A DNA stretch of 64,000 bases, from contig NC_092670.1 of NCBI RefSeq assembly GCF_964355755.1, positions 2,594,201-2,658,200 on the forward strand, written 5' to 3'. Below, one piece after another: positions 1 to 49,155 of this stretch. Under the pieces are notes generated by a model, which saw nothing but the letters and a program-made list of their open reading frames with translations, made no database searches and had not been told where the DNA came from. Source of the DNA: Antedon mediterranea (lineage: Eukaryota; Animalia; Echinodermata). Numbering within the stretch: the first letter of the stretch is position 1; every line of letters begins with the position of its first letter. Made by a program: the position numbers and the translations under genes.

Positions 1-1078
1 CTAGAAAACCGCGACGTTTCATTGACCGTGAGAGAGTACGTCAGAGTGATATTATGCACTTTATATGCACTCATTATTGCCAGCGATCTAACTTACTACT
101 AAACAATAGCTAGGTTCGCACTTGTCTGGCGGTATCCCTTTGTACGAATCGTTCAACGTTGGGTCGAGACGCGTGATATCATGTTCCATCCAGGGACCAA
201 AATGTGTACTGTAGTTATTTTCCAGGCGAAGTTTACTGACGGTTACGTCGTGTACTGCGTCGACGTACGCTACACTACAGCAAAATTTTTTTAATTTACA
301 AGTAACATTCTGTACCGTAGGGCACCTAAAATAAATTTTTCATCCATTACTAAACAAAAAAACATGCCATTTTCGCTTAGCCAACATCTTATTATAGCTA
401 AGTTATTACATTTTCAATGTCCTGTATGTCATGAATTTCTCACCACTCGGAAGTCCAGATGGTACGCACGCATACACTTGGGAGGAATAAACTTATTTCC
501 CCCGACTGAAAAAGGTCTACGCTTGCGTTTTTTAAGCATCTATGCCTGATGTTTCGGAAGTATGAAATGCAATTTTTTGAAGACCTGCAGCTCTAGTTTT
601 AAACAGTTTCTTAGCTCAGCCCCAACAATAAAGCTGGTCATATTTCGAAGTACAAGAAGTGCATTTTCCGGGACCTAACATCTCTATTTTTCAAACATTT
701 CTTAACTCAGTCACAACCTTGATAGGGACTTATATATTTTGTTTCATGTTTTTGAAGTATAATTTCTAAATTTTCTTTGAACTTTTATTTTTTAAATTGA
801 AAAATATGGATTGAAACAGTCATCGCGCATCGTTTTTTTGCACGCAGTATTTTATTTATGCATTATAAAAAATGGAAAAAATGGCTACCCTAAATCTGAT
901 TAAAATGACCTCAAATGACGCTAGAACGCGTTGCTTCCGGGGGCCTCGCCCCCTGGACCCCCACCGGGGGCCCTTGGCGGCCCCCTGGCCCCCAGCCTAG
1001 TGATGCTCGCTTCGCTCGCATAGCCCCCTCGTCGGGGAATGTAGCCCCCGTGTCGGGAAGATCCTGGCGCCACCCCTG
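1..1078 (-). mobile_element. Non-autonomous hAT-like DNA transposon, copy 1 (cut by window start), intronic
   Basis: Reverse complement of 5010-~6087 with only isolated substitutions seen; ends in TIR ...CTGGCGCCACCCCTG at 1078. Confidence 0.9.
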
Positions 1079-1183: not shown

Positions 1184-4100
1184 GTTGAAGCATGGTTGAA
1201 CAAACTTCAAGACGCGATGCGTCAGACGGTTCGTTTAACATTCAATGAGGCCGTTGTAGCGTATGAAGAGAAGCCAAGAGAGTACTGGCTGTATGATTAT
1301 GCAGCGCAGGTTGCACTGGCTACCACACAGATCTGGTGGACAACAGAAGTTGGAATTGCATTTGGCAGGCTGGAAGAAGGTCATGAAAATGCTCTTAAGG
1401 AATACAATAAGAAACAGGTAATGTAGCAATGTAATTATAGTATATGAATACTTATAACATGCCGTAAATAAGAGTCCTTGTTGTGTGTTTTTGTTGGTTT
1501 TATTTTGTATTTACAATAACCATTGAGAGAACATACCAGGATACGCATACTGCTGAAACAGCTTTTTCCAATGGAGTCCTATTAACAAGCAAAATAACTA
1601 TTGCAAGAACAACATTGAAATTTACACAAAAAAATGTGCAAATGTGTCTTTTATGCATACATAACCGACAGCGTAATGTCCTATCTGAAGGATGAAGCAA
1701 TAAATGTGAAGTATTTCAGCTGATGACATAGATGAGAGGAAGGTGTCTAACTTACACACATACCTGATCATTGTCATTGTGTCTTGTAATTATGAGAGGT
1801 GTTTACCAATCAAATTATTAATGTTATATATTGTATGACTTTTTAGGTTACACAACTCAACACTTTGATCACGATGTTAATCGGGAATCTGACACCAGGT
1901 GACCGCCAAAAGATCATGACCATCTGTACCATCGACGTGCACGCACGTGATGTGGTTGCAAAACTGATTGCAATGAAGATCGATAGCGCTCAAGCGTTCC
2001 AGTGGCTCAGTCAGTTGCGTCATCGATGGGATGATGAACGTAAGCAGTGTTATGCTAACATCTGTGACGCTCAATTTAGGTACTCGTATGAGTATCTCGG
2101 GAACACCGCTAGGCTTGTTATCACTCCACTAACTGATAGGTACGTTTCATAGTTTGTTATTCAACACAAAGAGAGTATTGCATATGATTGTGTAGTCTTT
2201 GGAGGAATCACTGCATGTTTAAAAATGAGAATTATTTTATTCCAGGTGCTATATTACCCTCACACAATCGCTGCATTTAACAATGAGTGGTGCTCCAGCT
2301 GGTCCTGCTGGAACCGGTAAAACAGAAACAACCAAAGATTTAGGTCGGGCACTTGGAATCATGGTCTACGTATTCAACTGCTCTGAACAAATGGACTATA
2401 AGGTAAAGTCTACACTATCAAACTTCACTATCAAAATGTGATGTGCCCATATATGGACATAATGATGTCATATCACTACCGTATTTAAGCATATCACTAC
2501 CATAATTGTGCACATCACACTTTTTTGTCAAACTAGTTTGATAGTGTAGACAGAGCTTTGATAATATCCTCAATGTTTAATGATGGTATAATTTTTTATG
2601 AAATTAATTTTGTTTTATCATGCAATATATATATATATATACATATATTAATGAAATCACGATTTTTAAAATAAAACTTTGATTTGTTTTCTAGTCTTGT
2701 GGTAACATCTATAAAGGTTTGTCTCAAACTGGTGCTTGGGGTTGCTTTGATGAGTTCAACAGAATCTCTGTAGAAGTATTGTCTGTTGTGGCTGTACAGG
2801 TAAGACTATGGAATGACCTTAGTAGAATTTTGAGTTTGAGTTTCTGTATTAAGCAATCATGGTCAATTAAAATACTTTACATAAATATAAACAAGCTCAA
2901 ATAGAAAAATCATGACAAAAATAAATTGTGTATTGGAATAGACCTTGATCAAGAAAAATTATTTCCACTTTGGTCCTGAAATGGTTTTCTGAAGTAAGTT
3001 CAGATTTGTACAATTAAGATCTCTGCAAAACTTTTTCAGTATCACCTGTTCAATTATGCTAATTTCATGTTAATTTGATCTTTTTCAGGTCAAGTGTGTC
3101 CAGGATGCAATTCGGGATAAAAAGAAACGTTTTAACTTCATGGGAGAAGAGATCAACTTGGTTCCCACTGTTGGAATATTTATCACTATGAATCCAGGTT
3201 ATGCCGGCAGGACTGAACTGCCAGAGAATCTGAAAGCACTCTTTAGGTAGTTGAATAAAGCTTATTATTCAGTAATCAAGAGTTTTAAACAATAATATTG
3301 TAAAACAGAAAAGAACAGGCCTTGATTACATAGGAAGTCCAAGAAAATTTAACCACTTATTTTCCTTGGATCCTTAGATACAAAGAACTAAAACATTGCA
3401 CACAAACCAGAAAAATAGAATTGGTGTATATGTTAATCAGCAACATATCAGAAGCTATAAATTATACTAGTTTGGATCACCTTAATAATGGTTTGTTTTG
3501 TTTTTTAGGCCATGTGCTATGGTGGTTCCAGATTTTGAACTGATTTGTGAGATCCTGTTGGTGGCTGAAGGTTTCCTTGATGCTAGGCTACTGGCGAGGA
3601 AATTCATTACACTCTACACCCTCTGTAAAGAGTTGTTATCAAAACAGGTTAGAAATTAGCTAAACTTTGTATGAATGTGAACCCGAGTCTACTCAGCTGT
3701 AAAGAAGGTGGCATGGAAAGGAACTGGCCACCCTACCAAATAATGCTAAGGTTTAGAATAATGAGCTCTTAACTGCTCATTACCCTGTGTTCTGTAAATG
3801 AATACAAGACTTACCTTTACTATTAATAACTTAATGACACATGATTTCAGGATCATTATGATTGGGGGTTACGTGCAATTAAATCTGTATTGGTCGTTGC
3901 CGGTTCACTGAAGAGAAGCGACAAGCAGCGTCCAGAAGACCAGGTGCTAATGAGGGCGCTTCGTGATTTCAACATCCCCAAGATCGTTACCGATGACATG
4001 CCAGTATTTATGGGATTGATTGGCGATCTTTTCCCATCGTTGGATGTGCCACGTAAGAGAGACTTGAACTTTGAGAAGGTCGTAAAACAGTCTACCATCG

Positions 4101-7100
4101 ATCTGAAACTACAAGCAGAAGATAACTTTGTGTTGAAAGTTGTACAGTTGGAAGAATTACTTGCAGTCAGGCATTCTGTATTTGTCATTGGTAATGCAGG
4201 AACCGGTAAAACACAGGTAAAAGCATTCATACTTTAACTCCGGTATAAAGGGTCCGGCGAATCGAACCGTGCCGGAACAGGTGTGAAAGACACTTAAGAC
4301 TGTATCACACAGTGTTCAACTAAAATTCTAATTTTGAGGTAGTTTTTAAGACGAAAATTCTTACAACTTTTTTTTTCCTGGTTCACAGGTATTGAAAGTA
4401 TTAAATAAAACATATGCAAATCTGAAACGCAAACCGGTGTTCATCGATCTTAACCCGAAAGCTGTTACAAACGATGAACTGTTTGGTATCATCAACCCAG
4501 CAACACGAGAATGGAAAGATGGTCTGTTTTCCACCATCATGCGAGACATGAGTAACATCTCACATGATGGACCCAAATGGATCGTGTTAGATGGTGACAT
4601 TGATCCTATGTGGATTGAGTCACTTAACACCGTCATGGATGACAACAAGGTGAGGTCTTATTCACTTGTTTATTGAATGTTTACCACAATTAAGCAGTAA
4701 ATGCTTATTAAAGCTTACAGATTGATACTTGATCAATTACCATACACATTGTTCTAATAAAATGTTAAGATGCTTTCAAAAATAATTCTTGTCCTATGAC
4801 TGGAACAGTATTGTTAAACAAGTAGTAGTGTTAAAATAACACCGCAGAGCTATACCATTTTGTGTGATGATTTTTTTTAACATAATTCAAATAATTAAAC
4901 TGTTTTTCTTTGTATAGGTGCTAACATTGGCCAGTAATGAACGTATTCCATTAACACCCAGTATGCGTCTACTGTTTGAAATTAGTCATCTGAAAACTGC
5001 TACCCCAGCCAGGGGTGGCGCCAGGATCTTCCCGACACGGGGGCTACATTCCCCGACGAGGGGGCTATGCGAGCGAAGCGAGCATCACTAGGCTGGGGGC
5101 CAGGGGGCCGCCAAGGGCCCCCGGTGGGGGTCCAGGGGGCGAGGCCCCCGGAAGCAACGCGTTCTAGCGTCATTTGAGGTCATTTTAATCAGATTTAGGG
5201 TAGCCATTTTTTCCTTTTTTTATAATGCATAAATAAAATACTGCGTGCAAAAAAACGATGCGCGATGACTGTTTCAATCCATATTTTTCAATTTAAAAAA
5301 TAAAAGTTCAAAGAAAATTTAGAAATTATACTTCAAAAACATGAAACAAAATATATAAGTCCCTATCAAGGTTGTGACTGAGTTAAGAAATGTTTGAAAA
5401 ATAGAGATGTTAGGTCCCGGAAAATGCACTTCTTGTACTTCGAAATATGACCAGCTTTATTGTTGGGGCTGAGCTAAGAAACTGTTTAAAACTAGAGCTG
5501 CAGGTCTTCAAAAAATTGCATTTCATACTTCCGAAACATCAGGCATAGATGCTTAAAAAACGCAAGCGTAGACCTTTTTCAGTCGGGGGAAATAAGTTTA
5601 TTCCTCCCAAGTGTATGCGTGCGTACCATCTGGACTTCCGAGTGGTGAGAAATTCATGACATACAGGACATTGAAAATGTAATAACTTAGCTATAATAAG
5701 ATGTTGGCTAAGCGAAAATGGCATGTTTTTTTGTTTAGTAATGGATGAAAAATTTATTTTAGGTGCCCCACGGTACAGAATGTTACTTGTAAATTAAAAA
5801 AATTTTGCTGTAGTGTAGCGTACGTCGACGCAGTACACGACGTAACCGTCAGTAAACTTCGCCTGGAAAATAACTACAGTACACATTTTGGTCCCTGGAT
5901 GGAACATGATATCACGCGTCTCGACCCAACGTTGAACGATTCGTACAAAGGGATACCGCCAGACAAGTGCGAACCTAGCTATTGTTTAGTAGTAAGTTAG
6001 ATCGCTGGCAATAATGAGTGCATATAAAGTGCATAATATCACTCTGACGTACTCTCTCACGGTCAATGAAACGTCGCGGTTTTCTAGGCGCTGAAGCTAG
6101 CTACGAAGTGAACGCGAACGCTTTTTACTGTATATTATATTCCCCGACAAAAAGTACCCGTGTTTCCTTCGGTAACCGTCGGTAAACTTCGCCTGGAAAA
6201 TAACTACATTACACATTTTGGTCCCTGGATGGAACTTGATATCACGCGTCTCGACCCAACGTTGAACGATTCGTACAAAGGGATACCGCCAGACAAGTGC
6301 GTACCTAGCTAATGTTTAGTAGTAAGTTAGATCGCTGGCAATAAATGAATGCATAAAAGTGCATAATAGCCCTCTGACGTACTCTCACGGTCAATGGAAC
6401 GTCGTGGTTTTCTAGGCGCTGAAGCTATATGAAGTGAACGCGAACGTTTTTTACTGTATATTATATTCCCCGACAAAAAGTACCCCTGTTCCCCGACGGG
6501 GGGGCTAGGCTCCCCGACGAGGGGGCTGGAGCCCCCGTAGCCCCCCCGCTGGCGCCACCACTGACCCCAGCCACTGTATCTCGAGCTGGTATTCTCTACA
6601 TCAATGCCTCTGATCTCGGCTGGAATCCGTAAGACTTGTTGCATATACATCTTTGATAGCTAGTGCTTTGAAGTGTACAAAAATAATAGTATATATTGAA
6701 GTAGCTATTGTAAAAAAATTCACACTTCTTTTTTTCTTCAGCGTTGTTACAAGCTGGATAGACACAAGAGAAGTGCAGTCAGAGAGAGCAAACCTTACCA
6801 TTTTGTTTGACAAGTACTTACCTGCAATGCTAGAAACCATGCGTGTGCGATTTAAGAAGATTATTCCTATTCCAGGTAACCACACAGATTACTCGCTCTC
6901 ATTAGTGATTTTATTTTCAAATACAATTTTGCATTTTGAGAAAGAGCTGAATAATATTAATTGCGTTCTTCACTGACCCACAGCACCCATAAATATTATT
7001 GATCATGTCAAGATTGTTCTACTGCAGTTATTGAACTACTTCTTGTGTTCATGAAAAGAGATACATTGTCAGTCTTATTTTTTTATCACACTATTTTTAT

Positions 7101-10100
7101 CCTTTCAGAACAAAGTATGGTACAAATGTTATGCTACCTTCTAGAATGCCTGCTAACACCTGAAAACACACCTCCAGACTGTCCAAAAGAACTTTACGAA
7201 CTTTACTTTGTGTTTGCTTCCATCTGGGCGTTTGGTGGTGCCATGTTCCAAGATCAGCTGGTAGACTATCGGGTAGAGTTCAGCAAGTGGTGGGTCACTG
7301 AGTTCAAGACCATTAAATTCCCCAGCCAGGGAACTGTCTTTGATTATTACATCGATCGGGATTCCAAAAAGTTCTTGCACTGGTCTGAAAGAGTTCCAGT
7401 CTTTGAGCTTGATCAGGAGATGCCCCTACAGGTAACGGTCCGCTTTTCTCATACAGCATACTATTCATTTCATGTTAGACCATCGTCTAAAAATATTTGG
7501 AAAGTCGGCTTTGTTTAGTAATAATAAATGTGTTATGTATGTATCAATACTTCTGCTCATGTACCATTGCCTACATGATTTGCGTACATGATTAGTACAA
7601 ACTTAATAGAAAGTTTAGGCAGGAAAAAATAAATGCGTTACCATTGCCTCATTTGGCTCTATTTGCCACACTAAAAACTTCAAACTCTACATTAAACTTA
7701 TCTCATTTCAAATTGTTAGGCTGTCCTTGTGCACACAGCAGAAACAACACGTGTACGGTTCTTCGTTGATCTGTTAATGGCCAATGGCCGTCCAGTCATG
7801 CTAGTTGGTAATGCCGGTCTTGGTAAGAGCGTACTTGTTGGCGATAAACTAAACTCACTGTCTGAAGACTACATGGTTGCTAATGTACCATTCAATTACT
7901 ACACAACCTCTGAAATGTTGCAACGTAATTAAGTTTCATTTAACATTTCATTCCTTCTTTATTCTGCAGGCACTTTCAGTACTAGTGCACTGATTTTTAA
8001 AGTGGTTCAGTAATTGGAAATATTATAACAAACATGATAAAGTAAAGACAAAATCAAAATTATAAATAGAGAAAATATACACTAAAAATGGAAATCAATT
8101 TTAGAAAAGAAAACTTAAATTTCTCTACGAATGTTTGTGAGATGAGAATAAAATCATTATTTTTATTCTAGTCAACATTAAACATTGTTACTTGATGAAG
8201 AGAAAAGTCGATTACAATGTATGTTGTCCATGGTTTTGTATTCATTATGTCACACAATGCAAGCACGAAAGACTTAACTTAATTGTCATTTATAATTAGG
8301 TGTTTTGGAGAAACCATTGGAGAAGAAAGCTGGACGTAACTATGGTCCTCCAGGAACTAAGAAGCTTGTCTACTTCATTGATGACATGAACATGCCAGAG
8401 GTAACTTTTTATTTTATTTAACGTTTAAAATCCTAATTATTGGCTAATCACCAAAATATAATATTTTATGTTTATTCTCTAATATAACTATCTGCAGTTA
8501 TTGTTAATGTTATTATATATTCAGGCAAAAGATTTTACAAAATATAATACAAATTAATCAAACACGATACAAGGAGAAAATATAAAATCAATCGCTATAA
8601 ATGAAATACAAAATCTTAATAAACAGGTTGATACGTATGGCACAGTACAACCCCATACTTTGATACGTCAGCACATGGATTACAGACATTGGTATGACAG
8701 AGTAAAGCTAAGTCTGAAAGAGATCCACAACTGTCAATACATCTCTTGCATGAACCCAACATCTGGAAGCTTCACCATCAATTCCAGACTTCAGCGACAC
8801 TTCTGTGTGTTTGCTCTTAGCTTCCCTGGTCACGATGCTCTCACCACTATATACAACAGTATCTTCAGCCAACATCTGAGCCTGACAGGGTGTACCACTA
8901 ACATTCAGAAGATGAGTCTTACAGTCGTGACGGCAGCTCTTGATCTGCACAAGAAGATCACCAGTGCCTTCCTACCAACAGCCGTCAAGTTTCATTACAT
9001 CTTTAATCTTAGAGATCTCTCAAACATCTTTCAGGTATTCAATTTGTTCTTTTACGTTCATTTTTTTTTTGTCAATAGTTTTGTATGCTGTAAACAGCCT
9101 TAAAAACACTGTATAGTGACTATGTTTTTTCTCTTTTGGAATATTGCTATATTATTTCAGCATTTATTAGGCTCAGTCTACACTATCAAACTTGTTTGAC
9201 TAAAAAAGTGTGATGTGCCCAAATTTGGTAGTGATATGCTTAAATATGGTAGTGATACAACATCATCATGTCCATCTTTTTGTCACATAAAGTTTGATAG
9301 TGTAGACAGAGCTTTATATTTGTTTTTTAAGTCATATAAGATCAGAATAATTAACATGACCATTATTATATTTTGTTATTTGTTTCATTTTGCATATATT
9401 TAGGGTTTGTTATTCTCTAGTCCTGAGTGCCTGAAGACGCCAAGTGATCTTATTCGTCTTTGGATGCATGAGTCAGATCGTGTGTATGGCGACAAAATGA
9501 TTGATGAGAAAGACATTGAAACATTCCAGAAAACATTAGTAGATTTTGGCAAAAAGTACTTTGAGGTTAGTATTCAAATTAAATAAATACCAAGAATTTT
9601 TAATTTTAGAAACAATAATTATTTAAAGACATTTTAAACAATTATTTTAAACATATAGGAACTACATTTCGTTTTTGATTTCAATGTTTTTTATGTTTTT
9701 TTCTGGTGAGACACCTAAATCAGCAACAGAAGCTTATGTGGGGTTTTTGTCACCCCTTGGCACATTAAGCTATTTTTTGTTGTGTGATTGACATTGGCTT
9801 AATTACTATCTTACTACACAATTCAAGCTCGTAGCCAGGATTTTTATAGGGGATTCATTTTTTAACAAAATGGGAAAAATTTTCACAATTTAGGCTTGTT
9901 AGGCCTATTTACTATTATTTCTGCTGCTGATCTCTAATTGAAAAGGGCACTTCAGGCAAAAAGTGGGTTCGTTCGTTATTATTGGTAATACAGTATGTTA
10001 TATAATTTATGTTTTCTTATCATTTTAATATTTTTCTTTTAGGATGTTGATGAAGAAACTTTTACAAAAAAGCCAAACATCTTCTGCCATTTTGCGTCAG

Positions 10101-13100
10101 GAATTGGGGATCCAAAATACCTTGGTGTTGCTGGCTGGGAAGAGCTTAGCAAGATCCTTATGGAAGCACTGGATAGCTACAATGAAATCAATGCTGTCAT
10201 GAACCTTGTGCTGTTTGAAGATGCCATGCAGCATGTGTAATGTGTATTTTAAATAATGTATCTCTGTTGAGTAGAAGGCCTGTGTTTTAATAGTCAAATA
10301 CAACAAATAAAATATTCTTTTAGATAAAATTCAGTACATATTGTAGTAAAAAAATTAAAATAGAGTGACTCTGAAAGAAATGTTGGTATATGGCATAATT
10401 CTTCTTTTGGAAACACATGGTGTACCGCAAACATAACTACATCCATGGCGTAATTGCTGAATTTTTATTTTTTAGCTGTCGTATCAATCGTATACTGGAG
10501 TCTCCTCGTGGCAACGCTCTGCTGGTTGGTGTTGGTGGCAGTGGTAAGCAGAGTTTGGCTCGTCTTGCAGCGTACATCAGTAGTTTAGATGTTTTCCAGA
10601 TTACACTGAAGAAAGGTTATGGAATACCTGATCTTAAGGTAAATTTTACTAATTTTTAATTATTAATTATTAATTAACACTGGGGTACAATTCTGCTCTA
10701 ATTTAATGGTGACACACATAAACGCGACTACCAATTAAAGTGACCACCAAACAAAAACAGGATAAAAACAAAAGCACATCATTTTTTGAAACAAAAAGAT
10801 TATTATTTATTTTGATCATTTCCAGGTAAATCAAACCTTACAATTAACACCTGTAGTGGTGTAGTTATGTGAATTATAATTATAACATATTATGTTGATC
10901 GTTTCAGGTTGACTTGGCTGCCCAATGTCTGAAAGCTGGTATGAAAGGAGTTGGCACCATGTTCTTGATGACAGATGCACAGGTAGCAGATGAGATCTTC
11001 TTGGTCTTGATCAACGATCTCTTGGCATCTGGTGAGATTCCAGACCTGTTTCCAGATGATGAAGTTGAGAATATCATTGGTGGTGTAAGGAATGAAGTGA
11101 AGTCTACTGGTTTGCAAGACACAAGAGAAAACTGCTGGAAGTTCTTCATTGAGAGGCTCAGAAAGCAATTGAAAGTAAGATGAGAGAAGATAGATTACAC
11201 ATGTCTGGTTCTTTTACATCAACTAATTATGGCCAAGTTATTACGATAATAAGGATAATATGAATATGTCAGAATGTGTAATATCATTTATTTTTCTTTT
11301 TGTAGGTTGTGTTGTGCTTTTCACCCGTTGGTAACACTCTTCGTGTTAGAAGCCGTAAGTTCCCTGCAGTTGTCAACTCCACATGTATCGATTGGTTCCA
11401 TGAGTGGCCAGAAGAGGCTCTGGTATCTGTCAGTCAGAGATTCCTTGAAGAAATTGAGTTACTACCGGTAAGTAAGAAAGTCTCTTTCCTCAATAAAACA
11501 TGTTTGTGACACAAAAAAACTGTAGAGTGTCCCAACATCAGTGATTAGCATCAAAGTTTTTTAATTTAGACCTAAAATGAATTAATAAATATATATAAAA
11601 CGTATGAAACCGTACTGAGTATGATCAACTAGACGCGAACTAGCCACCCATTCATAGAAGTAGTCTTTCTGTATGGTGACTGTAGACTGGACCTGACTTA
11701 AACTTTTAGCTGATCATTATATTAAAATAATAAATATAATGTTGTTGTTTTTGATGTGATATATGATGTCATTTATTGATATGTTTTCTTCAGAGAGATA
11801 TCAAATTATCAGTGGCACAGTTCATGTCGTATGTACACACGAGCGTAAACGAGACAAGCAAAATGTACCTGCAGAATGAGAGACGGTATAACTACACAAC
11901 ACCTAAGAGTTTCCTTGAACAGATAAAGTTGTACCAGAGTTTACTGACGGTCAAGAGTCTTGAACTGACTGCCAAGATGGAACGTCTGGAAAATGGCTTA
12001 ACCAAACTACAGAGTACAGCACAGCAGGTATTTTACTTGTTTAATTTGGCTTGCAAGCTTCTTTCTCTTAAGATGAAGAACATGCCATTTCCCATCTGTG
12101 ATTCCAGTTTTTTTAGTATTTGAGCTCTTTTTTTAAAATGAGAGATAAAAGGGAATATTGTATTTTCGTAATTTATACTAGTTCTTTAATTAATTGTCAA
12201 TTAGGTGGATGACCTGAAAGCCAAGTTAGCCTCTCAAGAAGTTGAACTTACTCAGAAGAATGAGGATGCTGACAAACTAATCCAGGTAGTTGGTATTGAG
12301 ACAGAGAAGGTGAGCAAAGAAAAGGTGATGGCAGCTGAGGAAGAGAAGAAGGTAGCAGTGATTGCGGAGGAAGTCGGCAAGAAAGCTAAAGAATGTGAAA
12401 CTGATCTTGCCAAAGCGGAACCTGCCCTCATTGCAGCACAAGAGGCTCTTAACACCCTCAATAAGGTACATTGACTGAATCTTGTTTCTGTGTTAGAAAG
12501 AGCTTTTATATTTGATTTATTCAATTTTGGCACAACAAATATTACAGAAAAATACAAAAATATATCCAATGTAAGCAAAACACATAGGATTGCCAAAAGT
12601 GAACTTAATCGTGTTAGAAGACAGAAATACAAATACATATAAAATATATTAGAATGGCAGTATCCATCAATAATCATCCTTTGTCTATTTTTAGAACAAC
12701 CTCACTGAGCTGAAGTCTTTTGCTACACCCCCATCAGCTGTACTTATGGTCACAGCAGCTGTTATGTGTCTCCTCGCTCCAAATGGCAAAGTACCAAAAG
12801 ACCGTGGCTGGAAAGCCGCTAAATCCATGATGCAAAAGGTAAAATATTTTTTTCACTAAAAAACATGATAATTATATTGTGAGGGGTTTGTGGTTGTAGA
12901 TTTGAAAATAATATATAAACAGTTTTCCTTCAATAATAAATCTAACTTCTTTAATTATTATTTTCTCTCTTGGATTCTTAAGTATGGAGAAGTATGTTCT
13001 TACATTCTTTAAAAGCTTTTTTCTTCATTCATTTCTTTCTACAATTTTATTGCACATTTTTTGCTACTGTACTTTTCAGTAAAGTTACACATTTCACTAT

Positions 13101-16100
13101 GTGGTTTGATTGATTTATATTTTTAATATATATTTACAATTCTGAACCGATTGAAGCTCCAGTGCGTTTGCGTGTGGCATTTCAATTAAACAATTCATAC
13201 AATTGTCTTGACTTGTTTTGAACAAATAAACTTTCCTTTTAAAGCATTTAATAATTCAGATCTGTGTATTTTTCACATGTTGGGTTGTATTAGGTATCCC
13301 AATGAAAAAATTCAGATTAATTTTTTTACCTTTTCTTTCAGTTAACCATAAAGAACTTAATGTAATTAGCATTTTGCAATTTAAATGATTGAAATCCGAT
13401 TACCCGTTCTAAAGTTATGGTTATTTAAAGTGTTAAAAAATATACGATTTTTTGCCTAAAAATTGTGTTTTTTGCAGTTAAAATTGGAAGCATTTTTAAA
13501 AGGTTATATAACTTTTACAATAATTAGTTAAAAGTTTTGAATTTTGTTAAACCTATAGATATCACAGAGTTGTACAACTCTATTTTTTTTGGAGCCTCAA
13601 CGAAACCTATTTTTAAAATTATTGGTCCGCGAAGTGGTAGGAAAGCATTTAGCGCCCATTTTTGCTGGAATTCCCTAAAAAAATGAAAAAACTGCAATTT
13701 TTCAATGATCTGTAACTTTTGAACTACTGTGCTAATTCATTTAATTTTTTTTGTACTCGTTAGAATGTAGTGTATTTGTATATATCCAAAGATGTTAAAT
13801 TTTACTGGCTTTTTATGTAAAATTTTGAATCCAATAAAAATTATTCAGTTGATTTGGTTACTTAATATTTTTTCACGATATTTTTTTACTGTATAATTGT
13901 ATCACTATTATTATTATCATCACCATATGTTTTTCGCTTTTCGCTTATTCCAGATCCTGTTTGAATTGTCTGCCTTCAACTGTATAGTAGTTTAGAAATT
14001 AAAAACACTTTTATATACATTTAGGTTGATGGTTTCTTGGATTCTCTATTAAACTATGATAAAGAAAACATTCCTGATGGCTCATTAAAAGCTGTACAAG
14101 AGTATCTCAACAACCCTGAGTTTAAGCCTGACCTCATCAAGTCTAAATCTGCTGCTGCAGCTGGTCTCTGCTCATGGGCAGTAAACATTGTTACGTTCTA
14201 CAATGTGTTCTGCGATGTGGAACCAAAAAGGAATGCATTGAACAAGGCTAATGCTGAGTTAACTGCTGCGCAAGACAAACTGGCTATTATCACGGCTAAG
14301 ATTGCTGTAAGTTTGATATATTCTTTATTCCCACAACCAACAGTGCAAAGCAACAATGACAGGCTAAACAAAATATACACACTTAAAAACACAATTAAGG
14401 TAAAACTTATATAATAATCATCACGAACGCTGAACATCATGCGACATAGCGCACTTAACAACAATCAGAGCGATTATTAACCAAAGTGTACATAGACTTA
14501 TTTATTTTTTATTTTCGTATCATTTTCTATAATATCATTCAACATACAATATCATCATTTTGTTATAAAAGTCTTTAAAATTGCTGTAACATTTGATCAG
14601 AAATATTATACTATAATATCAAAGTTTGTAAATCCACTATTTTTATCCAACACCCAACAAGTATCAATATTAAGTTTTTAAATGTTAGATGATTCAGTAC
14701 ATCTTAATAATAACAAGCATTGTAATTATCATTTAATGTTAGGAATTGGATGCTAACTTGGCTAAATTAACAGCTGATTTTGAGGAAGCAACATCCGCCA
14801 AGTTGAAGTGCCAGCAAGAAGCAGAGTCCACTGCTAGAACCATCACGTTAGCTAACAGGCTTGTTGGTGGCCTAGCCTCTGAAAATGTCCGTTGGGCTGA
14901 GGCTGTAGCAGGATTTAAAGAGCAGGAAAAAACTCTTCGTAAGTAATTAAATTAACTTTCCCCATTTTTGTTTAACCCTCTCACTCTCCCTTTTGTAATT
15001 GGTTTATCTTGTTGGAGCTTGTCTTGTTATATTATATTTCCAGTCTTTGCTTACATTTCACGTTTCTTTTCAATTTTAATAAAAATATTCATTTATGAGT
15101 AAAACATCATTCTTTCATCTAACTTGTTAATCTTGTTTCTTTTTCCAGCTGGTGATGTGCTGTTGACAACCGGCTTTGTGTCGTACATGGGATGTTTCAG
15201 TAAATCTTACCGTATTGATCTCATTGAGAAGATGTGGTTGCCATTCCTAAAGAGCCAAAAGGTATGTGCTATGTACAAAAGATATTGACAGTATAGTTTA
15301 TAATATGTGCATGAAGGGGCACCATTTTAAAAAGTGAGCACCTGTGACCTAAGGTCTACAAAAAATTCATATTTGCTATCTTTCAGTAACATTTAACTAA
15401 ATGTCTGTCTTTCAAAAAATAAAAATGTATTAAATATAATATTACTAATACTACTAACTAACAATTATATATATTATTTATTCTAGGTTCCTATTCCAAT
15501 AACTGAAGGGATAGATCCATTGTCACTTCTTACAGACGATGCTGCTGTTGCTCTTTGGAACAACGAAGGTCTGCCAAGTGATCGCATGTCAACAGAAAAC
15601 GCAACCATTTTGACCAACTGTGAACGCTGGCCTTTAATGGTTGACCCACAGCTACAGGGTATCAAATGGATAAAGAGCAAGTACGGAGACGGTCTACGAG
15701 TCGTGCGACTTGGTCAGCGTGGTTATCTGGACACGATTGAGCAAGGAATATCGAATGGAGATACGGTGCTGATTGAGAATATGATGGAGAGTGTGGATCC
15801 TGTACTGGATCCTCTATTGGGAAGAAATACTATCAAGAAAGGAAGGTAAGAGATTTATCAAGAAATCAATATAAAATGTTTTTAGATTAACGTTATTCCT
15901 GTCAAACCAATTACTTTATTATATAAATAAACGTGTTAGTCTCATCAGAAATAGATAATACATCATCACCTTGCAGCATCTTCATTCCAGTTTGGATAAT
16001 ACCAACAGCTAAAAAAGGAGAATCTTGTAGAAGGAAAGAGTTGCACTGAAATATAAAAAAATACTTTATTTGTTTATAAATTATAGATACATCAAGATTG

Positions 16101-19100
16101 GTGACAAAGAGGTTGAGTACAACCCAGAGTTCCGTCTAATCTTACAGACTAAGCTAGCTAATCCTCATTACAAACCAGAGATGCAAGCCCAAACAACACT
16201 GATCAACTTCACTGTCACCAGAGACGGTCTTGAAGACCAGTTGTTGGCACAGGTTGTTGCGCAAGAAAGACCAGATCTTGAAGCTCTTAAGGTATAAGAA
16301 CACTGGTTGAAAATAATTCAGCTTACTTGTAGTACTCAAACCAACTGACACAATCTCAAATACTTTGTTAGAGATAGTCTAGAAAATTTGCTATTGTCAT
16401 TCTATAAAGAATTTGAGAAGAATAATATTATAAATATTGATGCTTTCTACTGCATAGTAAACCTTGAATGAACCTGTTAGAGCCAGTCTAGTATCAAACC
16501 AAACCTTACAGTTAAATATGTCTCAAGGTGCAAGGTATATGGTTTCACCCATCACATCTAATGACACAGGACAAACACACACAGTTGATTGATGTATTTT
16601 TTCTCCAAATTGTTAGTTGGATTTGACGAAGCAACAGAACGACTTCAAGATTGTCCTCAAAGAGCTTGAAGACAATCTCCTCTCCCGACTGTCATCTGCA
16701 GAAGGCAACTTCCTTGGTGATACAGCTCTAGTGGAGAATCTGGAAACAACCAAACGAACTGCAGCGGAGATTGAGGTGAAGGTGACGGAAGCGAAAACAA
16801 CAGAAGTGCAAATCAACGAAGCAAGAGAACACTACAGACCTGCTGCTGCAAGAGCATCTCTCCTCTACTTCATTCTGAACGATCTTAACAGGATCAATCC
16901 AATGTATCAATTCTCTCTTAAGGTAATAGAATTTTGTAGTTGTTTTGTTCTATATAAGTTGGAAATTATTTACACAAAGCAAGTATCTCAAACAAGGATG
17001 TAGTGTCATATAGAAAGAATTGAATCTGTAAACCTCATAATTTGATAAGATTTATATTTTATACAGTTGAAATGTTTAAAAAAGTGTATTGAAACGTAGC
17101 ATTTTGAGGATTATTGTGTTTGTGATTATTTAGCTCATTGCTTCAATGCCAGGGTCATGAGTTCAAATCATACCAGAATCTGTCTTATCAAAGCAGCACT
17201 ACTATCCAAGACTCCTGACAACACTTACATTTTATAGTGAACTAATATCTCTGTGCATGCTTTAAGTAAAGGTCTAATTCTTTAATGTGTTCTTTCTTTC
17301 AGGCTTTTAATGTTGTGTTCGCACAATGCTGCATTACTATCTAAGGCTCCTGATCTCATTATTTAATTGTCTTTTTTGCAGGCTTTCAGTGTTGTGTTCG
17401 CACATGCCATCAGCAAAGCTGAGCCTGCTGAGGAAGTAAAGCAACGTGTTGGAAACCTGATTGATTTCATCACATACTCTGTGTTCATGTACACATCTCG
17501 TGGTCTCTTTGAACAAGACAAACTTATTTTCACTGCTCAAGTCGCCTTCCAGGTGTGTAGATTATGTTTTGTTTTCATCCAATTTCCCATTTATGTTTAA
17601 TCTCATGGTACCAAACCTTACTATTTCAAAGAAAAATACAAATAGTGTTTTTTTAAAACTCAATAAGGTGTTTTTTAAATGAAAGTACAGCTGTGGGCTA
17701 ATAAAACTATCTGTTGTGCCAGTTCTCGTGTTATTATGTTCTGTATCAGAAAAAATTCTGACAAAAATCCACATTTTTAATGTTCCTTGTAGCCATCACT
17801 TGTTCAACTTTTTCATATTAAAAGTAATAATGTCTTTGTAACTATAATATTATTATTTAATATAGGTGTTATTGATGAAGAAAGAGATCAACCCATTGGA
17901 GCTGGAGTTCCTGCTAAGATTCCCATCACAAATGAATGTCACCAGTCCAGTTGACTTCCTTTCAAACAACTCTTGGGGTGCAATCAAGGTATGCCACTAT
18001 ATTCTCTATTTATTTTTTGCTAATACTAATCATTTTAAGTTTATGGTGATAAAGTAGTGTTGATGGTGTAGTGTAGTATGTTACTGCCCTAATTATAATA
18101 CACAAAGAGATATTCTACTTGTAAGCGCTAACTCAATTATTGAGGATATCTTAGCCCAGGATTTTTCTTTAACATTTAATTTTACATTTTTAAGTGAAAT
18201 TTTTATTTTTGGTTCCGATCTTCTTTCGAATTGTGAAAATGCTTTATTATTTTATTATGTACAACAATTTCTTGTTAATTCTGGAAGATTCAATTGATGT
18301 TTCTGTTAGTCGTTTTAAAATGTTGTATTTGTTAATCTGAGGCGCCTTGAAGCTAAGATGGTTCCATCTTGTAAGGCGCCTCTGTGTAATATACTGAATA
18401 AAAAAAAAAAAAAAAAAAAAAAAGTAGTGTTGATGAATTTTAGGAAATCTCTTTGTAATTTTATTCACGTATTTAGTAGCAAGTTAAGATCTCTTTTTTT
18501 TCTCTCTTTTTTGTATTCATTGTATAATTGTATGTAAATCAAAATGTAAACCAAGCAATCAAATCTCATTTGCACCTCATTGTTAAAATGAATAAATAGT
18601 ATCGTATTGTACATATTTAGTTGCCTGATTTGACTTTAATCCTAATTCTCTTCAGTCCCTGTCTGGTATGGAAGAATTCCGAAACTTGGATCGTGACATT
18701 GAAGGTTCTGCAAAACGTTGGAAGAAATTTGTAGAGAGTGAATGCCCAGAGAAGGAGAAGTTCCCACAAGAATGGAAGAACAAGTCATCGCTACAGAAGC
18801 TATGTATGATGAGGGCGCTCCGACCAGACAGGATGACATACGCTGTCAGGTATGGTGTTAAGTTTTTTTAATGAAATATATCATATCTTAATTCAATTAT
18901 AAATTTACATTGTTTTATAAATTTTAATTTTTTAAAGTAATAAGTTGATATTTGATTCATTTTAGTAACTTCATTGAAGAGAAACTTGGTGCTCAGTACA
19001 CAGAAAATCGTGCTGTTGAGTTTTCCAAATCATTTGAAGAAACCGGTCCAGAAACACCTGTCTTCTTTATTCTATCCCCTGGTGTTGACCCGTTGAAGGA

Positions 19101-22100
19101 CGTGGAAGCGTTGGGTAAGAAGATTGGCTGGACATTTGACCAGGGTAACTTTCACAATGTGTCTTTGGGTCAAGGTCAGGAAATCGTGGCTGAACAGTGT
19201 ATGGATTTGGCAGCTAAAGAAGGCCATTGGGTCATTTTACAGGTAAGGTATCTTTATATTTGTTTCAATGCAGTTATATATTTTTTTACAGTATCTTTGA
19301 CACTGATCTGAATTTTTGGTGACAATCAGGATGTGACTGTCACATACTTATTTTGACATATTTTTACATCACTGTTATTATACACAGAACATCCATTTGG
19401 TTGCCAAATGGCTTTCGACATTAGAAAAGAAGCTGGAAGCATACAGCTATGGTAGTCATAAAGATTACAGAGTGTTCATGAGTGCTGAGCCCTCAGGCAC
19501 ACCAGAGTCGCACATCATACCTCAAGGTATATTGGAGTCTTCCATCAAGATCACAAACGAACCGCCAACTGGCATGCACGCAAATCTACATAAGGCTCTT
19601 GACAACTTTAATCAGGTAATTTTTTTTTCTCATATCTCAACATCATTATGTTTGTATAATTAAACACCCCTTGCGATTAATAAAATTGTCCAAACCAGAA
19701 TCTGCTTTACTGTACAAGCAACTTTATTTTTGTGTGTAAAAATATTATCTATAAAACAAAATAGAGAATTAAACACTTACCTGAATAAACTGACAAACAA
19801 ACTGACTAAAAAATTAGTACACCCCTTTAGGATTAATGGTTTATGCCACATTTTTATCATAAAATTATCAATTGCAGGATACACTTGAGATGTGCTCCCG
19901 TGAGGCAGAGTTCAAGAGCATTCTCTTTGCCCTCTGTTACTTCCATGCAGTCGTCGCAGAGCGTCGTAAGTTTGGACCACAGGGCTGGAACAGAGTCTAT
20001 CCATACAACACTGGAGACTTGACAATCTCTGTCAATGTACTCTATAATTATCTTGAAGCAAATGCTAAGGTTTGTAAAAATCTTTTATTGAACCTATTGT
20101 AACTGTCATATCTTTATCTAAATAAACTGATCTTTAATTGTTGTAATTCTAATTCATGATTTAATGGGTGCATTTGCTTAAAGCACTAAAAGGCAAAACA
20201 TATTTATCCTATTTTTTTTATATTTGTTTAAAGTTATTATTCAGCAATAAAGAGTAAATATGTAAGAAACTACAGTATTATTTATATTACTAAGAAACTA
20301 TATATTACTAAGAAACTTACTTCTATGCATCCTAATTGACAGATTGGTTTAATTTTTTGTGTGCTTGTTACAGGTCCCATGGGAAGATCTACGTTATCTC
20401 TTTGGTGAAATCATGTACGGAGGTCACATCACAGATGACTGGGACAGGAGACTCTGCCAAACTTATCTTGAAGTGTATATGCATGTTGATATGGTAAGAT
20501 TCCGTCAAAATATATCTTATTACTCTTCCAGTCAACTTTTGGAATGCTCTTATGTGATGTCTATTTTTTCTGTCATCAATGCCATAGCCTTGTCAAGTCA
20601 AAATTTACAAATACAGAAAATATATCTTTTTTAATAGTACAGCATCATGATCACTCTATGTATTTCATGTTTTGTATTACATCCCTGAATCATAACAACT
20701 AATTATTACATCTATTCAATATCTTTGCAGCTTGACGGTGAATTGTACCTCGCCCCTGGTTTCCCAGTGCCTGGTAACTCAGACTACAAAGCATATCACA
20801 CTTACATTGACGAGATGCTCCCAGCGGAAAGTCCATATCTGTACGGACTTCATCCTAACGCAGAAATTGGATTCCTTACGACTACATCAGATAACTTGTT
20901 CAAGACAGTACTGGAGATGCAGCCGAGAGACAGTAGCGGAGGCGGTGGGGGCGCTAGTAGCAGAGAGGAAAAGGTGATTGTTTTATTATAACTTAAATTC
21001 AACATTATTTGTAAACTAAGGATTAACCCTAGTGTTGTAACAAAATGGATTAAAACCTAGGAACCTGATATTGGAAAGCAAACACTTCAGTGTCATTTTT
21101 CAATCTTAGAAAAGTCATTTATTTATTTTCTGCTGAATACTGTAATCAAGTTAAATTGCTTTGCTTATTTATGGCATGCATATATTTTCTTCTGGTTTTC
21201 TTTTAAATGACTTTTTATTCTCTCCAGATAAAATCTTTACTAGATGAAATCATTGAGAAGTTACCAGAAGAGTTCAACATCATGGAACTGGCAGCAAAGG
21301 TTGAGGAAAGATCACCATATGTTGTGGTTGCCTTCCAAGAATGTGAACGTATGAATACGTTGACCAATGAGATTAGACGCACACTTAAGGAACTTGATCT
21401 TGGACTTAAGGTAAATATTATTATTGTCTTATAATTACCTTGGTTGGGACAGTTTTGAATGGGAATTCTTAATTTAAAAGCTTGTGCCCTAAACCTTGTA
21501 ATGCTTAATGTTTTCCTTGATGGCTACTGCCAATACCAGTTTTAATTCCAAGATGAAAAATACACCCAACAATTGTAAAACTTTATAATTTTAAAAAGGT
21601 ACTGCATCATTTTTAGCACAGTAACTGGTTTTGTATTGGTTTATTCAAAATAACCTTTGCCTTATATTTATGTTGTAGTTTTCTTCTTCATCCAGGAGGA
21701 GCTAAAGTTGTTTTAATTGTTATTTTAATTTGTGTTATAGGGTGAACTGACAATCACTGCAGATATGGAAGATCTCAGCAATGCTCTGTACCTTGATCAG
21801 GTACCAGCCTCATGGATGAAACGTGCCTACCCTAGCTTATTTGGCCTAGGCCAATGGTATACTGATCTACTACTACGTATCAAAGAGCTTGAAAGCTGGA
21901 CGTCAGACTTTGCATTACCAAATGTAGTCTGGCTTGCAGGCTTCTTCAACCCTCAGTCGTTCCTGACAGCCATTATGCAGTTGATGGCACGTAAGAATGA
22001 ATGGCCACTAGACAAGATGTGTTTACAGTGCGACGTGACAAAGAAAAATAAGGAAGATTTCAGCAGCGCACCTCGTGAGGGCGCTTACGTACATGGCTTG

Positions 22101-22358
22101 TTCATGGAAGGTGCACGATGGGATATTCAAACAGGTATGATAGCTGATGCACGTTTGAAGGAACTCACCCCTGCGATGCCAGTAATCTTTATCCGGGCTA
22201 TCCCTGTTGATAAGCAAGAGACGCGAAACATTTACGAGTGTCCAGTGTACAAGACTAAGATACGAGGACCGACGTTTGTTTGGACTTTCAACTTGAAGTC
22301 CAAAGAGAAGGCTTCAAAATGGGTTCTTGCTGGTGTTGCTCTTCTACTGTCTTCGTAG
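1184..22358 (+). CDS. DNAH9/11/17: Axonemal outer-arm dynein beta heavy chain (DNAH9/DNAH11/DNAH17 group), 3' portion, ~38 GT-AG exons; one exon interrupted by a transposon at 5010-6563
   Basis: Collinear exons encode AAA1 ([10 protein letters not shown]; [10 protein letters not shown]), AAA2 (GNAGTGKT; [24 protein letters not shown]), AAA3 (GNAGLGKS), AAA4 ([10 protein letters not shown]), stalk and MTBD (12205-14938), AAA5 ([11 protein letters not shown]), AAA6 and C-terminus ...[12 protein letters not shown] (TAG ends 22358). First visible exon 1184-1417, last 21741-22358. The 5' half is outside the window; the specific paralogue cannot be resolved by eye. Confidence 0.95.
2407..2557. mobile_element. 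PIF/Harbinger(Tourist)-like MITE, left TIR truncated
   Basis: GTCTACACTATCAAAC...GTTTGATAGTGTAGACAGAGCT; same family as 9170, 23050 and 23683. Confidence 0.75.
3680..3822 (+). mobile_element. SINE 3' fragment (Nin/Meta-domain-like), intronic
   Basis: CCCGAGTCTACTCAGCTGTAAA...GGAACTGGCCACCCTACC...TTACCTTTAC tail resembles remembered invertebrate SINE domains; recognition from memory only. Confidence 0.4.
5010..6563 (+). mobile_element. Non-autonomous hAT-like DNA transposon, copy 2 (1,554 bp), inside a dynein coding exon
   Basis: TIRs CAGGGGTGGCGCCAG / CTGGCGCCACCACTG (14/15 match); 8-bp TSD ACCCCAGC at 5002-5009 and 6564-6571; GC-rich subterminal CCCCGAC motifs; internal ~330-bp tandem duplication; no transposase ORF. 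Confidence 0.93.
9170..9313. mobile_element. PIF/Harbinger-like MITE
   Basis: TIR (G/A)GCTC(A/T)GTCTACACTATCAAACT; TTA on both sides. Confidence 0.8.
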
Positions 22359-23049
22359 GTTTTCATTCCTTTACAAAAATGTTTTAAAACTTTTGTGACT
22401 AAAGTTACCTAATTCATAAAACTCTGTGTAATGTTCATATACTACCAGGCCTTGTTATGGGAAACATTTGGAAACAAGTCCAGGTAAACACAACATCATC
22501 TAGTATATTATCTAGTATATTTATTATTATATATTTGATTGTTTATTGAAAATTTAATTTAAATTAAACATCATCTTTTTGCAAAATTGAGTGCAACTTA
22601 ACGATTGGAAAGTTTATAAAGTTTATAATCCAAATGTTTTCAACTATACCTATTGTATTATACTAATTCAATGATTATATAGAGCTAAAGCCACCACTCA
22701 AAGACATTGGTTTTCAAAGCATTCACTAAATATGTTTATATTTTTATTTTAAAAGTTAAATTCTATACTATACATTGTTGTAAAAAAATAAACAATACAT
22801 CCATTTATCAGTGCTTTCCCTCCATACATCCATTTATCAGTGCTTTCCGTCCATATTTGTCATCTATTTTTAACAACCTTTTTTGTATTTGTGCCAATAG
22901 ATAAATGTAATAACTATATATAATATATATAAAATAAAATATTATTTTTAGGTATTTTACCAAAATGGCAAAACAAACTACTAATTTTACTTGCATTGGA
23001 ATTAATATGCAATCTTCTTGCATAAAAACTTTAGAATTGCATTGTGTTA

Positions 23050-23189
23050 AGCTCTGTCTACACTATCAAACTTTATGTGACAAAAAAATGTGATGTGCCC
23101 ATATATGGACACGATGATGTCATATCACCACCATATTTAAGCACATCACATTTTTTTTGTCAAACTAGTTTGATAGTGTAGACAGAGCT
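23050..23189. mobile_element. PIF/Harbinger-like MITE
   Basis: Perfect TIR AGCTCTGTCTACACTATCAAACT; TTA TSD at 23047-49 and 23190-92. Confidence 0.85.
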
Positions 23190-23682
23190 TTAGCAAAGGA
23201 TTAGTCTTGGATTAAGAATAGCAGGGCCTCTTTTTGTCATCAAATCAATTTATGGATTCCATTTGATTCTGTTTGTGGGTGTCAACTATTCTGTCCATTT
23301 TATAATTTGTTTGTGGTATAAATACCAAAAAAAGTGTTCCGTCCATTATTATAAATACAATTTCTAAATTTAAGAGATTATAAAATGAAAAATATATTGA
23401 CATGTTCAAAACAATGTAATTTTCTATGAAGTGAAGATAATAAAATGATTTTGACAAAGTCTCTTTGGATAGTTTCCATCATTTATTTTGTTCTCATGTT
23501 GGATAATGACTATATAGAAGTAATTAATAATTACAACAAAGTACTTATTTGAATGGGTGACACATGGAATAATACTAATATGGATATGTTTTACTATTGC
23601 ATATCAAAGCCTACTTTTAGCACAATACCAATTAAAATAGTTCCTCTGTGTGACTTCACAAATAAGTACGAATGTCTACTTA

Positions 23683-23828
23683 AGATCTGTCTACACTATC
23701 AAATTTTATGTGAAAAAAAATGTGATGTGCCCATATATGGACATCATCACTACCATATTTGGGCAAATCACTACCATATTTGGGCACAACACACTGTTTT
23801 TGTCAAACCTGATGGGGTAGACAGAGCT
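23683..23828. mobile_element. PIF/Harbinger-like MITE (diverged)
   Basis: Same family TIR with mismatches; TTA flanks. Confidence 0.75.
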
Positions 23829-29846: not shown

Positions 29847-30169
29847 TTAATTTTAGCAGAGATTGTTTAGTTATATGAATATCCAATTTCCACTAGTCAT
29901 CAAATCTTCACCAATTTTTTGGCAGATATCACTAATTGAAATCCTATCTTCATTTTTAAATCTCTATAGACAAATTTTCCTTCTACGAGTCCATGCACCA
30001 TGCCATTATTAAATGAAACCATAAGCTACCAGCAATTGCAGTATTTGCTCTATCAACTTTCCTAAAAACTTCCCAGTCTGTCATCATAGAGCTGCTGCAC
30101 CCGTTGGTTTATGTACTGTAGTTGTCTTCTGTAAATCCATACTAAGTTTTTAGTACCCCTGTTTCATCA

Positions 30170-32050: not shown

Positions 32051-32439
32051 ATTTAGAAAATCGATGACTATATTAGTTGAACCCAGAAGCTAACAAAACA
32101 AGGATTACAGAGAAGAAGAATTCAACAGCACTTAATTGGTACTGCAGTATGTTTTTGTCTTACTCTAGTTTCTGTAGTCTTTTTCTTTAATGAAGTTGTA
32201 GCGTTATATTGTAAATGATTGATTTGTATCTGCTAGTGTTTTGATTTATATTATGCAGATATTGGCTGTTTAGAGATCAAATCTCAGGGAAAGTTCTGAA
32301 GACCTGTTATTTTCAATTAGTATATTTTTCATTACCTATTTCAGTGGTCGGTTGATGTATGTTGTGTACCAAAACTTTGGAAGTCTGCTATTATCACACC
32401 GATTCCAAAAAATGATAAATGTACTGTTTGCAATGACTA

Positions 32440-32890
32440 TATGCCAGTGCCTAACAGCCATCCCCATGAAATGTTTTGAGAAAATTATAAAAAATATATT
32501 AAATAATGAGACAAAGGGTATGATTGATAGCAACCAATTTGCTTATAGGGAAAAAAGGGGCGTAGTTGACGCAGTTATGACGCTCACGCAAAAGGTGTAT
32601 GATCATCTTGAATATCCAAATAACTATGCTAGAATATTATTTTTAGATTTTTCTGCAGCGTTCAATACAATTCAGCCTCATTTACTTACAGATAAATTAT
32701 TAAAGTTAGGAATAAATCCACGATTAAATCTCTGGATTTCTGATTTCTTAAATGAAAGAACACAGATTGTTAAGTTTAGAGGTAACGTATCAAAGCAGTT
32801 AACTTGTAATACAGGTGCACCACAGGGATGCAAATCTCTCACCCTTACTTTTTTCATTATATTCTGATTTTTATAGTGATATTGATCCAA
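32440..32890 (+). mobile_element. Rex1/Babar-like LINE RT fragment, part 1
   Basis: MKCFEKII...QFAYREKRGVVDA...RILFLDFSAAFNTI...TGAPQG. Confidence 0.85.
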
Positions 32891-33039
32891 CCCAGTGGGC
32901 ACAGAACATAATTTCAACGTTGAATCAACGTTGAAATATAGTTGATTTGTTGAAATAATGTTGTCAGCGTATTTCAAACGTTGAATCAACGTTGAAATAA
33001 CATTTTTTCCCTAACTATTTTTTTTACGTTTAGTAATAA

Positions 33040-48960: not shown

Positions 48961-49155
48961 TTCAGTTTGTTTCTAGTTGTTGACGTACACACACAGCAGT
49001 GTTAAAAGAAATGATGACAATCTGAGGTAGGTGTGTCTCATTAGAGTGCAATGTTGAATGAACTATACCCTAATATTGGGGTTGATATGGTTATTTATGT
49101 TAAAATTCTTGTAATATTTTCCGTTCTTCGGGGAGAGAGGGGCTATCCAGGTAAG

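What the first reader, a model, noticed from the sequence alone, without database searches (positions are those of the whole stretch)
5002..6571. Transposon in a dynein coding exon that could be spliced out in frame (candidate introner-type intron birth)
Seen: the 1,554-bp hAT-like element splits ...[14 protein letters not shown]..., adding 1,562 bp including the TSD, in a gene whose other exons look intact. A GT in the left TIR (5015-16) and the AG in the second TSD copy (6569-70, CTGACCCCAG) define a 1,556-nt GT-AG intron. The spliced product ACC CCA GCC AGG G|CC ACT GTA TCT CGA is in frame (TPA-RA-TVSR, +2 aa). Established: introner DNA transposons can supply one splice site and co-opt the other from the TSD, and the SR arginine in ATVSR(C/A)G is the AAA2 arginine finger. 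Inference: this is either a nascent intron or a null allele. Caveats: the donor G|GTGGCG is weak, the acceptor lacks a U-rich tract, and +2 aa beside the arginine finger may be harmful.
Basis: partly seen in the sequence, partly recalled or inferred. Interest (0 to 1): 0.88.

Follow-up and report, generated by a model that had tools for sequence, protein, structure and literature searches.

The report
Heterozygous transposon insertion in dynein exon
A young, multi-copy cut-and-paste transposon interrupts a coding exon on one of the two copies of a ciliary dynein gene in this animal, while the other copy is intact, so it is likely an ordinary broken allele rather than a newly born intron.

Summary
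In detail: a 1,554-bp element with 15-bp inverted ends and an 8-bp duplication splits a dynein beta-type heavy chain exon, and a GT-AG pair could formally remove it, leaving two extra residues. The intron-birth reading is not supported. In DNA of the matching sample the filled and empty alleles have depth 25 and 25.5, so the insertion is heterozygous. Three other samples, two of them spliced RNA, show no insertion at this site. Against 33 native introns of the gene, the proposed acceptor scores -11.3 bits (native 2.4 to 14.7) and the donor -1.3 (32 of 33 native donors are stronger). 14% of exonic sites would give such an in-frame AG by chance. The donor also lies in a 1,078-bp inverted repeat with a second copy upstream. 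The motif has no indel in 81 of 81 homologs, and read-through meets a stop after 26 codons. Splicing itself is untested, because no RNA from a carrier was found. The scan noted a similar case on other DNA (e1-7683199). Verdict: ordinary polymorphic, likely null allele.

The parts
1184..22358 (+). Part of an axonemal dynein heavy chain gene of the DNAH9/DNAH17 (outer-arm beta) type, 38 exons in the window, 5' part outside it; open for 2,809 aa without the element
4918..5009 (+). 5' half of the interrupted 149-nt exon (AAA2 region); native acceptor used in RNA
   Evidence: (joint 4647>4916, GT..AG, X5 and X9)
5002..5009 (+). 8-bp target site duplication, first copy
5010..6563 (+). 1,554-bp non-coding hAT-like DNA transposon; longest stop-free frame 83/84 aa; present on one of the two chromosomes
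5010..5024 (+). Left terminal inverted repeat; holds the GT (5015-16) proposed as donor, -1.3 bits
5089..5091 (+). First in-frame stop (TAG) on read-through into the element
5842..6493 (+). Internal tandem duplication of about 327 bp (93.9% identical)
6468..6548 (+). GC-rich subterminal repeats (CCCCGAC at 6468, 6491, 6512; also 5051 and 6142) where an acceptor's U-rich tract would have to lie
6549..6563 (-). Right terminal inverted repeat (14 of 15 match)
6564..6571 (+). Second copy of the duplication; holds the AG (6569-70) proposed as acceptor, -11.3 bits
6572..6628 (+). 3' half of the exon, with the TVSRAG motif (Arg codon 6582-6584, likely the AAA2 arginine finger)
1..1078 (-). Second copy of the same element (cut by the window start) in an upstream intron of the same gene, opposite orientation, 2 differences in 1,078 bp

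Best explanation
A young, non-autonomous, likely hAT-type DNA transposon sits in a dynein heavy chain exon on one chromosome of this individual and likely makes that copy a null allele, which the intact second copy would cover. Shown: the ends, the 8-bp duplication, the 50:50 filled and empty alleles, and the empty allele in other samples. Inferred: a transposase from elsewhere in the genome pasted the element in recently, perhaps by a local hop from or to the near-identical copy 3.9 kb upstream. Inferred: the spliceosome uses the strong native acceptor at 4918 and does not see the GC-rich element ends as an intron. Transcripts would then read into the stop at 5089 (or splice from cryptic donors behind it, end at internal AATAAA sites, or skip the 149-nt exon and shift frame) and be removed by nonsense-mediated decay. 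Selection would keep the allele rare.
For: Zygosity: X4 filled-junction contig depth 25 and empty-allele joint depth 25.5. X3 empty joint 299 against flanking contigs of 444-568. The empty joint (skip of 1,562, no footprint) is in 4 of 4 runs. Other samples: the X5 5,513-nt spliced contig and the X9 spliced contig run from 5011 into the empty-allele sequence. The X6 DNA contig leaves the stretch at 5011 at the summed depth of both haplotypes (153.9 vs 79.3+79.2). In X5, X6 and X9 depth stays flat over 4968-4999, where X4 rises to 85, so they hold no extra junction contig. Splice signals (33 native introns, leave-one-out): acceptor -11.3 vs 2.4-14.7, rank 77 of 94 AGs in the region; 1 T in positions -20..-4 vs 5-13; donor -1.3 vs -2.2-12.1, rank 66 of 103 GTs; GC of the first and last 60 nt 0.68 and 0.78 vs at most 0.48 and 0.35. 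The stop at 5089 lies before the best element donors (5123, 5178 and later). None of 31 frame-keeping single splices has an acceptor in the native range. The donor is inside a 1,078-bp 99.8% inverted repeat with the upstream copy (local duplex -69.2 kcal/mol). Youth: 2 differences between the two copies. All 15 exonic differences tested between this haplotype and the others are synonymous (only the rows shown, 39 rows hidden). Depth over the element is several hundred to about 2,000 times that of the flanks (not a copy number).
Against: No RNA from a carrier was found, so decay and absence of splicing are inferred. The splice model rests on 33 introns of one gene, and one native donor scores lower than the proposed one (-2.2). 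Known hAT elements (maize Ds) are spliced from exons (review passage). X1's empty-allele contig runs through the right junction without a break, so the filled right junction is seen only as a contig break in X4, not as a contig. Linkage of the upstream copy to this haplotype rests on the assembly alone. Contigs drop rare variants.
Confidence: 0.87

Rival explanations
1. Leaky nascent intron, Ds-style: a measurable share of transcripts from the insertion allele is spliced from the GT in the left end to the AG in the duplication, giving a dynein with two extra residues.
For: The geometry is real and in frame. One site from the element and one from the duplication is the known introner pattern, and some families add codons. 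Maize Ds, a hAT element, is spliced from exons. Pairing of the inverted ends could bring the two sites close (duplex -32.7 kcal/mol).
Against: Acceptor 13.7 bits below the weakest native acceptor, with no U tract; weak donor; 14.3% chance geometry. The GT is part of an end sequence shared with related elements in unrelated metagenome contigs, so it need not reflect splicing. 1,554 bp exceeds the 30-654 nt family medians of introners. The extra residues would fall in a motif with no indel in 81 of 81 homologs and with equal spans in 34 of 34 solved dynein hits, at the AAA1-AAA2 nucleotide site (numbering recalled). No such joint among the 15 rows shown (43 hidden), and no extra contig in the RNA runs, though those samples appear not to carry the insertion.
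Confidence: 0.08
2. The allele is rescued in part by some other cryptic splice or by precise somatic excision of the element.
For: 31 frame-keeping GT-AG pairs exist inside 4918-6628. The family looks recently active.
Against: The best of these use an acceptor at 6481 (-2.7 bits, below the native range) and replace or add 5-32 residues in the AAA2 core. The 50:50 depth leaves no sign of frequent excision.
Confidence: 0.03
3. Assembly artefact or a rare somatic insertion.
For: The element is a high-copy repeat, and the filled right junction was not seen as its own contig.
Against: Exact left-junction contig at the same depth as the empty allele; contigs of X1, X3 and X4 all end at 5011 and one of X4 starts at 6564, the breaks expected for two alleles; perfect 8-bp duplication.
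Confidence: 0.02

Closest known systems
Non-autonomous hAT-superfamily DNA transposons (Ds-type and Tol2-type derivatives)
   Same: 8-bp duplication, short imperfect inverted ends and subterminal repeats, as described for Tol2 (PMC8151067, passages); no coding capacity; many copies; insertion polymorphism.
   Different: No partner transposase could be identified (no genome held), so the superfamily call rests on the ends alone. Related ends with 8-bp duplications occur in metagenome contigs (L035, 959 bp, 7 of 8; L049, 153 bp, 8 of 8).
Maize Ds insertions spliced from exons (Wessler 1987, 1991; seen only as a review passage and reference titles in PMC2836002)
   Same: hAT-type element in an exon, donor near the element end, acceptor from flanking host sequence (detail of site use recalled).
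   Different: Ds splicing was shown in RNA. Here none is shown, and the acceptor context is GC-rich and far from this gene's norm.
Introners (Micromonas IE1, Aureococcus, Chrysochromulina families; PMC9860276, PMC11282704, PMC12130899)
   Same: Non-autonomous element with inverted ends and duplication; one site could come from the element and one from the duplication; addition of codons is known.
   Different: Introner families are defined by many copies that are introns, with family medians of 30-654 nt. Here there is one exonic copy of 1,554 bp with no splicing evidence, and the other copy in the window lies inside an old intron.

Membership tests
Non-autonomous hAT element | 8-bp target site duplication | tested here: met
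   related ends in L035 and L049 also have 8-bp duplications
Non-autonomous hAT element | Short terminal inverted repeats with subterminal repeats | tested here: met
   15 bp, 14 of 15; CCCCGAC repeats near both ends
Non-autonomous hAT element | No transposase of its own | tested here: met
   longest stop-free frames 83 and 84 aa
Non-autonomous hAT element | An autonomous partner with the same ends that encodes a hAT transposase | not testable with these tools
   no genome held; no transposase-length frame beside the 14 metagenome hits examined (longest 188 aa)
Introner | The insertion is removed from mRNA by splicing | not testable with these tools
   no RNA from a carrier; both RNA runs laid show the empty allele only
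Introner | Element and duplication supply usable splice sites | tested here: not met
   GT and AG exist, but the acceptor scores -11.3 vs native 2.4-14.7 and the donor -1.3; a prediction from 33 introns, not an assay
Introner | Many copies of the family sit in genes as introns with boundaries at the element ends | tested here: inconclusive
Introner | Splicing leaves the protein essentially unchanged | tested here: inconclusive
   frame kept (+6 nt), but in a motif without indels in 81 of 81 homologs; effect on the protein not tested
Axonemal dynein heavy chain, DNAH9/DNAH17 type | Best matches and continuous coverage of the motor domain | tested here: met

The most novel reading that the evidence does not exclude
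A recently active, high-copy hAT-like family in an animal carries a donor GT in its end and, where the target duplication supplies an AG in frame, is spliced out well enough to give working protein; this heterozygous dynein allele would then be an intron caught at birth, before fixation.
Probability: 0.04. Interest if true: 0.7.

Novelty: new member of a known kind. Interest (0 to 1): 0.12.

Why it matters
As it stands it is a routine loss-of-function polymorphism from an active transposon family, and a useful caution: about one exonic insertion in seven of this element would look 'spliceable in frame' by chance. If carrier RNA showed the junction, it would be a rare segregating example of intron birth in an animal and would allow direct measurement of splicing efficiency and fitness of a newborn intron.

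Tried and rejected
Whole-genome survey of copies: no genome held. Contigs starting at 5014/5015 in the RNA run X5 look like a splice boundary but occur in the DNA run X6 too and fit the other element end, which differs at its fourth base, so they were rejected as splicing evidence. X1's joint depth (69.6) is the mean of a 479-letter contig and was not used for allele ratio. The CTGAC formed by the right end plus the duplication was considered as a branch point, but its A is only about 6 nt from the AG, too close for an animal intron (general knowledge). Metagenome scan with a 27-base end pattern: 0 hits; with 16 bases: 120 loci, of which 7 resemble the element end by blastn and 2 have paired ends with a duplication; 1 of 8 related ends has AG at duplication positions 6-7, too few and from other organisms to test a bias. 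Rfam: 0 matches in 4900-6700. Searches did not list cytoplasmic dynein, so residue numbers could not be mapped directly. PMC2921059 (passages) concerns Ac transcript splicing and was not used. The 1991 Ds1 paper is not held. Four automatically placed junctions (3, 34, 35, 36) were dropped before building the splice model. No earlier notes on this place.

Full report
Observation. The sequence is as described. ACCCCAGC stands at 5002-5009 and 6564-6571 around a 1,554-bp element (5010-6563) whose ends are inverted repeats matching at 14 of 15 bases. GT lies at 5015-16 and AG at 6569-70; cutting between them removes 1,556 nt, keeps the frame and adds Arg and Ala between TPA and TVSR. The host is an axonemal dynein heavy chain of the DNAH9/DNAH17 type. 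Without the element and one duplication copy its frame is open for 2,809 residues over 38 exons to a stop at 22356 (four junctions placed by hand).

The element. It has no coding frame above 84 residues, GC-rich subterminal repeats and an internal duplication of about 327 bp. A second copy lies on the minus strand at 1-1078, in an upstream intron of the same gene, with 2 differences in 1,078 bases. Both copies share bases at 5524, 5532, 5545 and 5550 where nearly all other depth shows another letter, so they belong to one young sub-lineage; a local hop is possible but not shown. Depth over the element is several hundred to about 2,000 times that of the flanks in the matching sample and about 200 times in a related organism (the tool warns that this is no copy number). 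Similar ends with 8-bp duplications occur on short elements in metagenome contigs (L035, L049). These traits match hAT elements as described for Tol2 (PMC8151067, passages), but no partner transposase could be sought.

Zygosity and other individuals. Eighteen runs hold the stretch; six were laid. The empty allele, an exact skip of 1,562 bases, appears in 4 of 4 runs, including three DNA runs of the best-matching sample. In X4 the filled left junction is a 54-letter contig without differences at depth 25 and the empty joint has depth 25.5. In X3 the empty joint has 299 against flanks of 444-568. The individual is therefore heterozygous; this sample may be the source of the window and is not independent support for the insertion. 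X5 (same organism label, other sample) and X9 (another organism label) are spliced RNA, with the native intron cut out, and both continue from 5011 into the empty sequence. X6 (DNA, other organism label) leaves the stretch at 5011 at full two-haplotype depth, its letters not shown. None of these three has an extra contig at the exon end. The empty state is thus ancestral and common. These runs cannot test splicing of the insertion, since they seem not to carry it, and contigs drop rare variants. No 5014-to-6571 joint is among the 15 rows shown; 43 rows were hidden.

Splice signals. A position weight model from 33 of the gene's 37 introns in the window gives leave-one-out scores of -2.2 to 12.1 bits for donors and 2.4 to 14.7 for acceptors. 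The proposed donor scores -1.3 (66th of 103 GTs between the native sites) and the acceptor -11.3 (77th of 94 AGs). The acceptor has 1 T where native ones have 5-13, and the proposed intron's ends are 68% and 78% GC against at most 48% and 35%. The donor also sits inside the 1,078-bp inverted repeat formed with the upstream copy, which would be transcribed first (same-haplotype linkage from the assembly only). The in-frame geometry needs no selection to explain it: 14.3% of 6,427 exonic sites in this gene would give it, and the GT is part of an end sequence shared with relatives elsewhere.

Likely outcome. Read-through meets TAG at 5089, upstream of the better donors in the element and of many later junctions, so decay is expected (nonsense-mediated decay from general knowledge). 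Skipping the 149-nt exon shifts the frame. All 31 frame-keeping single splices use acceptors below the native range. Even the proposed product would lengthen a motif with no indel in 81 of 81 homologs that cover it (of 120 fetched) and with equal spans in 34 of 34 solved-structure hits (both sets favour close matches). A preprint names R2358 as the arginine finger and A2354 as a further contact to the phosphate mimic in human cytoplasmic dynein (10.1101/2022.11.08.515461, two passages); that these are the A and R of ATVSR is recalled and fits the spacing. Fifteen of 15 exonic differences tested between haplotypes are synonymous, so the insertion haplotype has not decayed, as expected for a young allele.

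Comparison. Introners can take one site from the element and one from the duplication, and some add codons (PMC11282704, parts 1-2 of 5; PMC9860276, passages; PMC12130899, passages). They are defined as families whose copies are introns, with median lengths of 30-654 nt (the supplementary table behind that range was not read). Maize Ds is known to be spliced from exons (PMC2836002, passage and reference titles), so even leaky splicing here would be a new case of a known effect. I did not search for a report of this element or allele by name, so I make no claim that it is unpublished.

Verdict. A real, heterozygous, recent insertion of a non-autonomous hAT-like element, most likely a null allele (0.87). 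Measurable splicing at the proposed sites remains possible (0.08), and functional intron birth is unlikely (0.04). Interest is low.

Noticed in passing
window 1-1078 (-): Second copy of the element in an intron of the same gene, 99.8% identical and inverted relative to the exonic copy; the pair could form a duplex of over 1 kb in the pre-mRNA around eight exons. Its zygosity was not tested.
   Followed up: partly
window about 4250-4300: Short high-copy repeat inside a 172-bp intron (very high depth and many loose ends at 4264 and 4295-4297).
   Followed up: no
window 2408-2559, 9158-9316, 23039-23193, 23679-23840: A family of about 150-bp repeats with internal inverted symmetry (MITE-like), two of them in dynein introns.
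   Followed up: no
window 3800-7600: The matching sample is highly heterozygous: many single-base differences between its two haplotypes, all 15 exonic ones tested being synonymous.
   Followed up: partly
window 30135-31775 (+): Broken frames that look like a DIRS-type retroelement (reverse transcriptase, RNase H and tyrosine recombinase-like text; likeness recalled).
   Followed up: no
window 32274-32867 (+), 47034-47972 (-), 62427-63642: Fragments that look like non-LTR and Penelope-type reverse transcriptases (likeness recalled).
   Followed up: no
window 59169-61937 (-): 922-residue open frame that looks like a Ty3/Gypsy gag-pol (zinc knuckle, protease, reverse transcriptase, RNase H; likeness recalled).
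   Followed up: no
window 32909-34843, 38223-38975, 44538-48961: Tandem arrays with periods of about 61, 110-120 and 220 bases.
   Followed up: no
L035:632-1590, L049, L106, L023, L029, L050, L114, L116: Metagenome contigs with the same 16-base end; most also share the subterminal CCCCGAC-type repeat, and L035 and L049 are complete short elements with 8-bp duplications, so the end type is widespread.
   Followed up: partly
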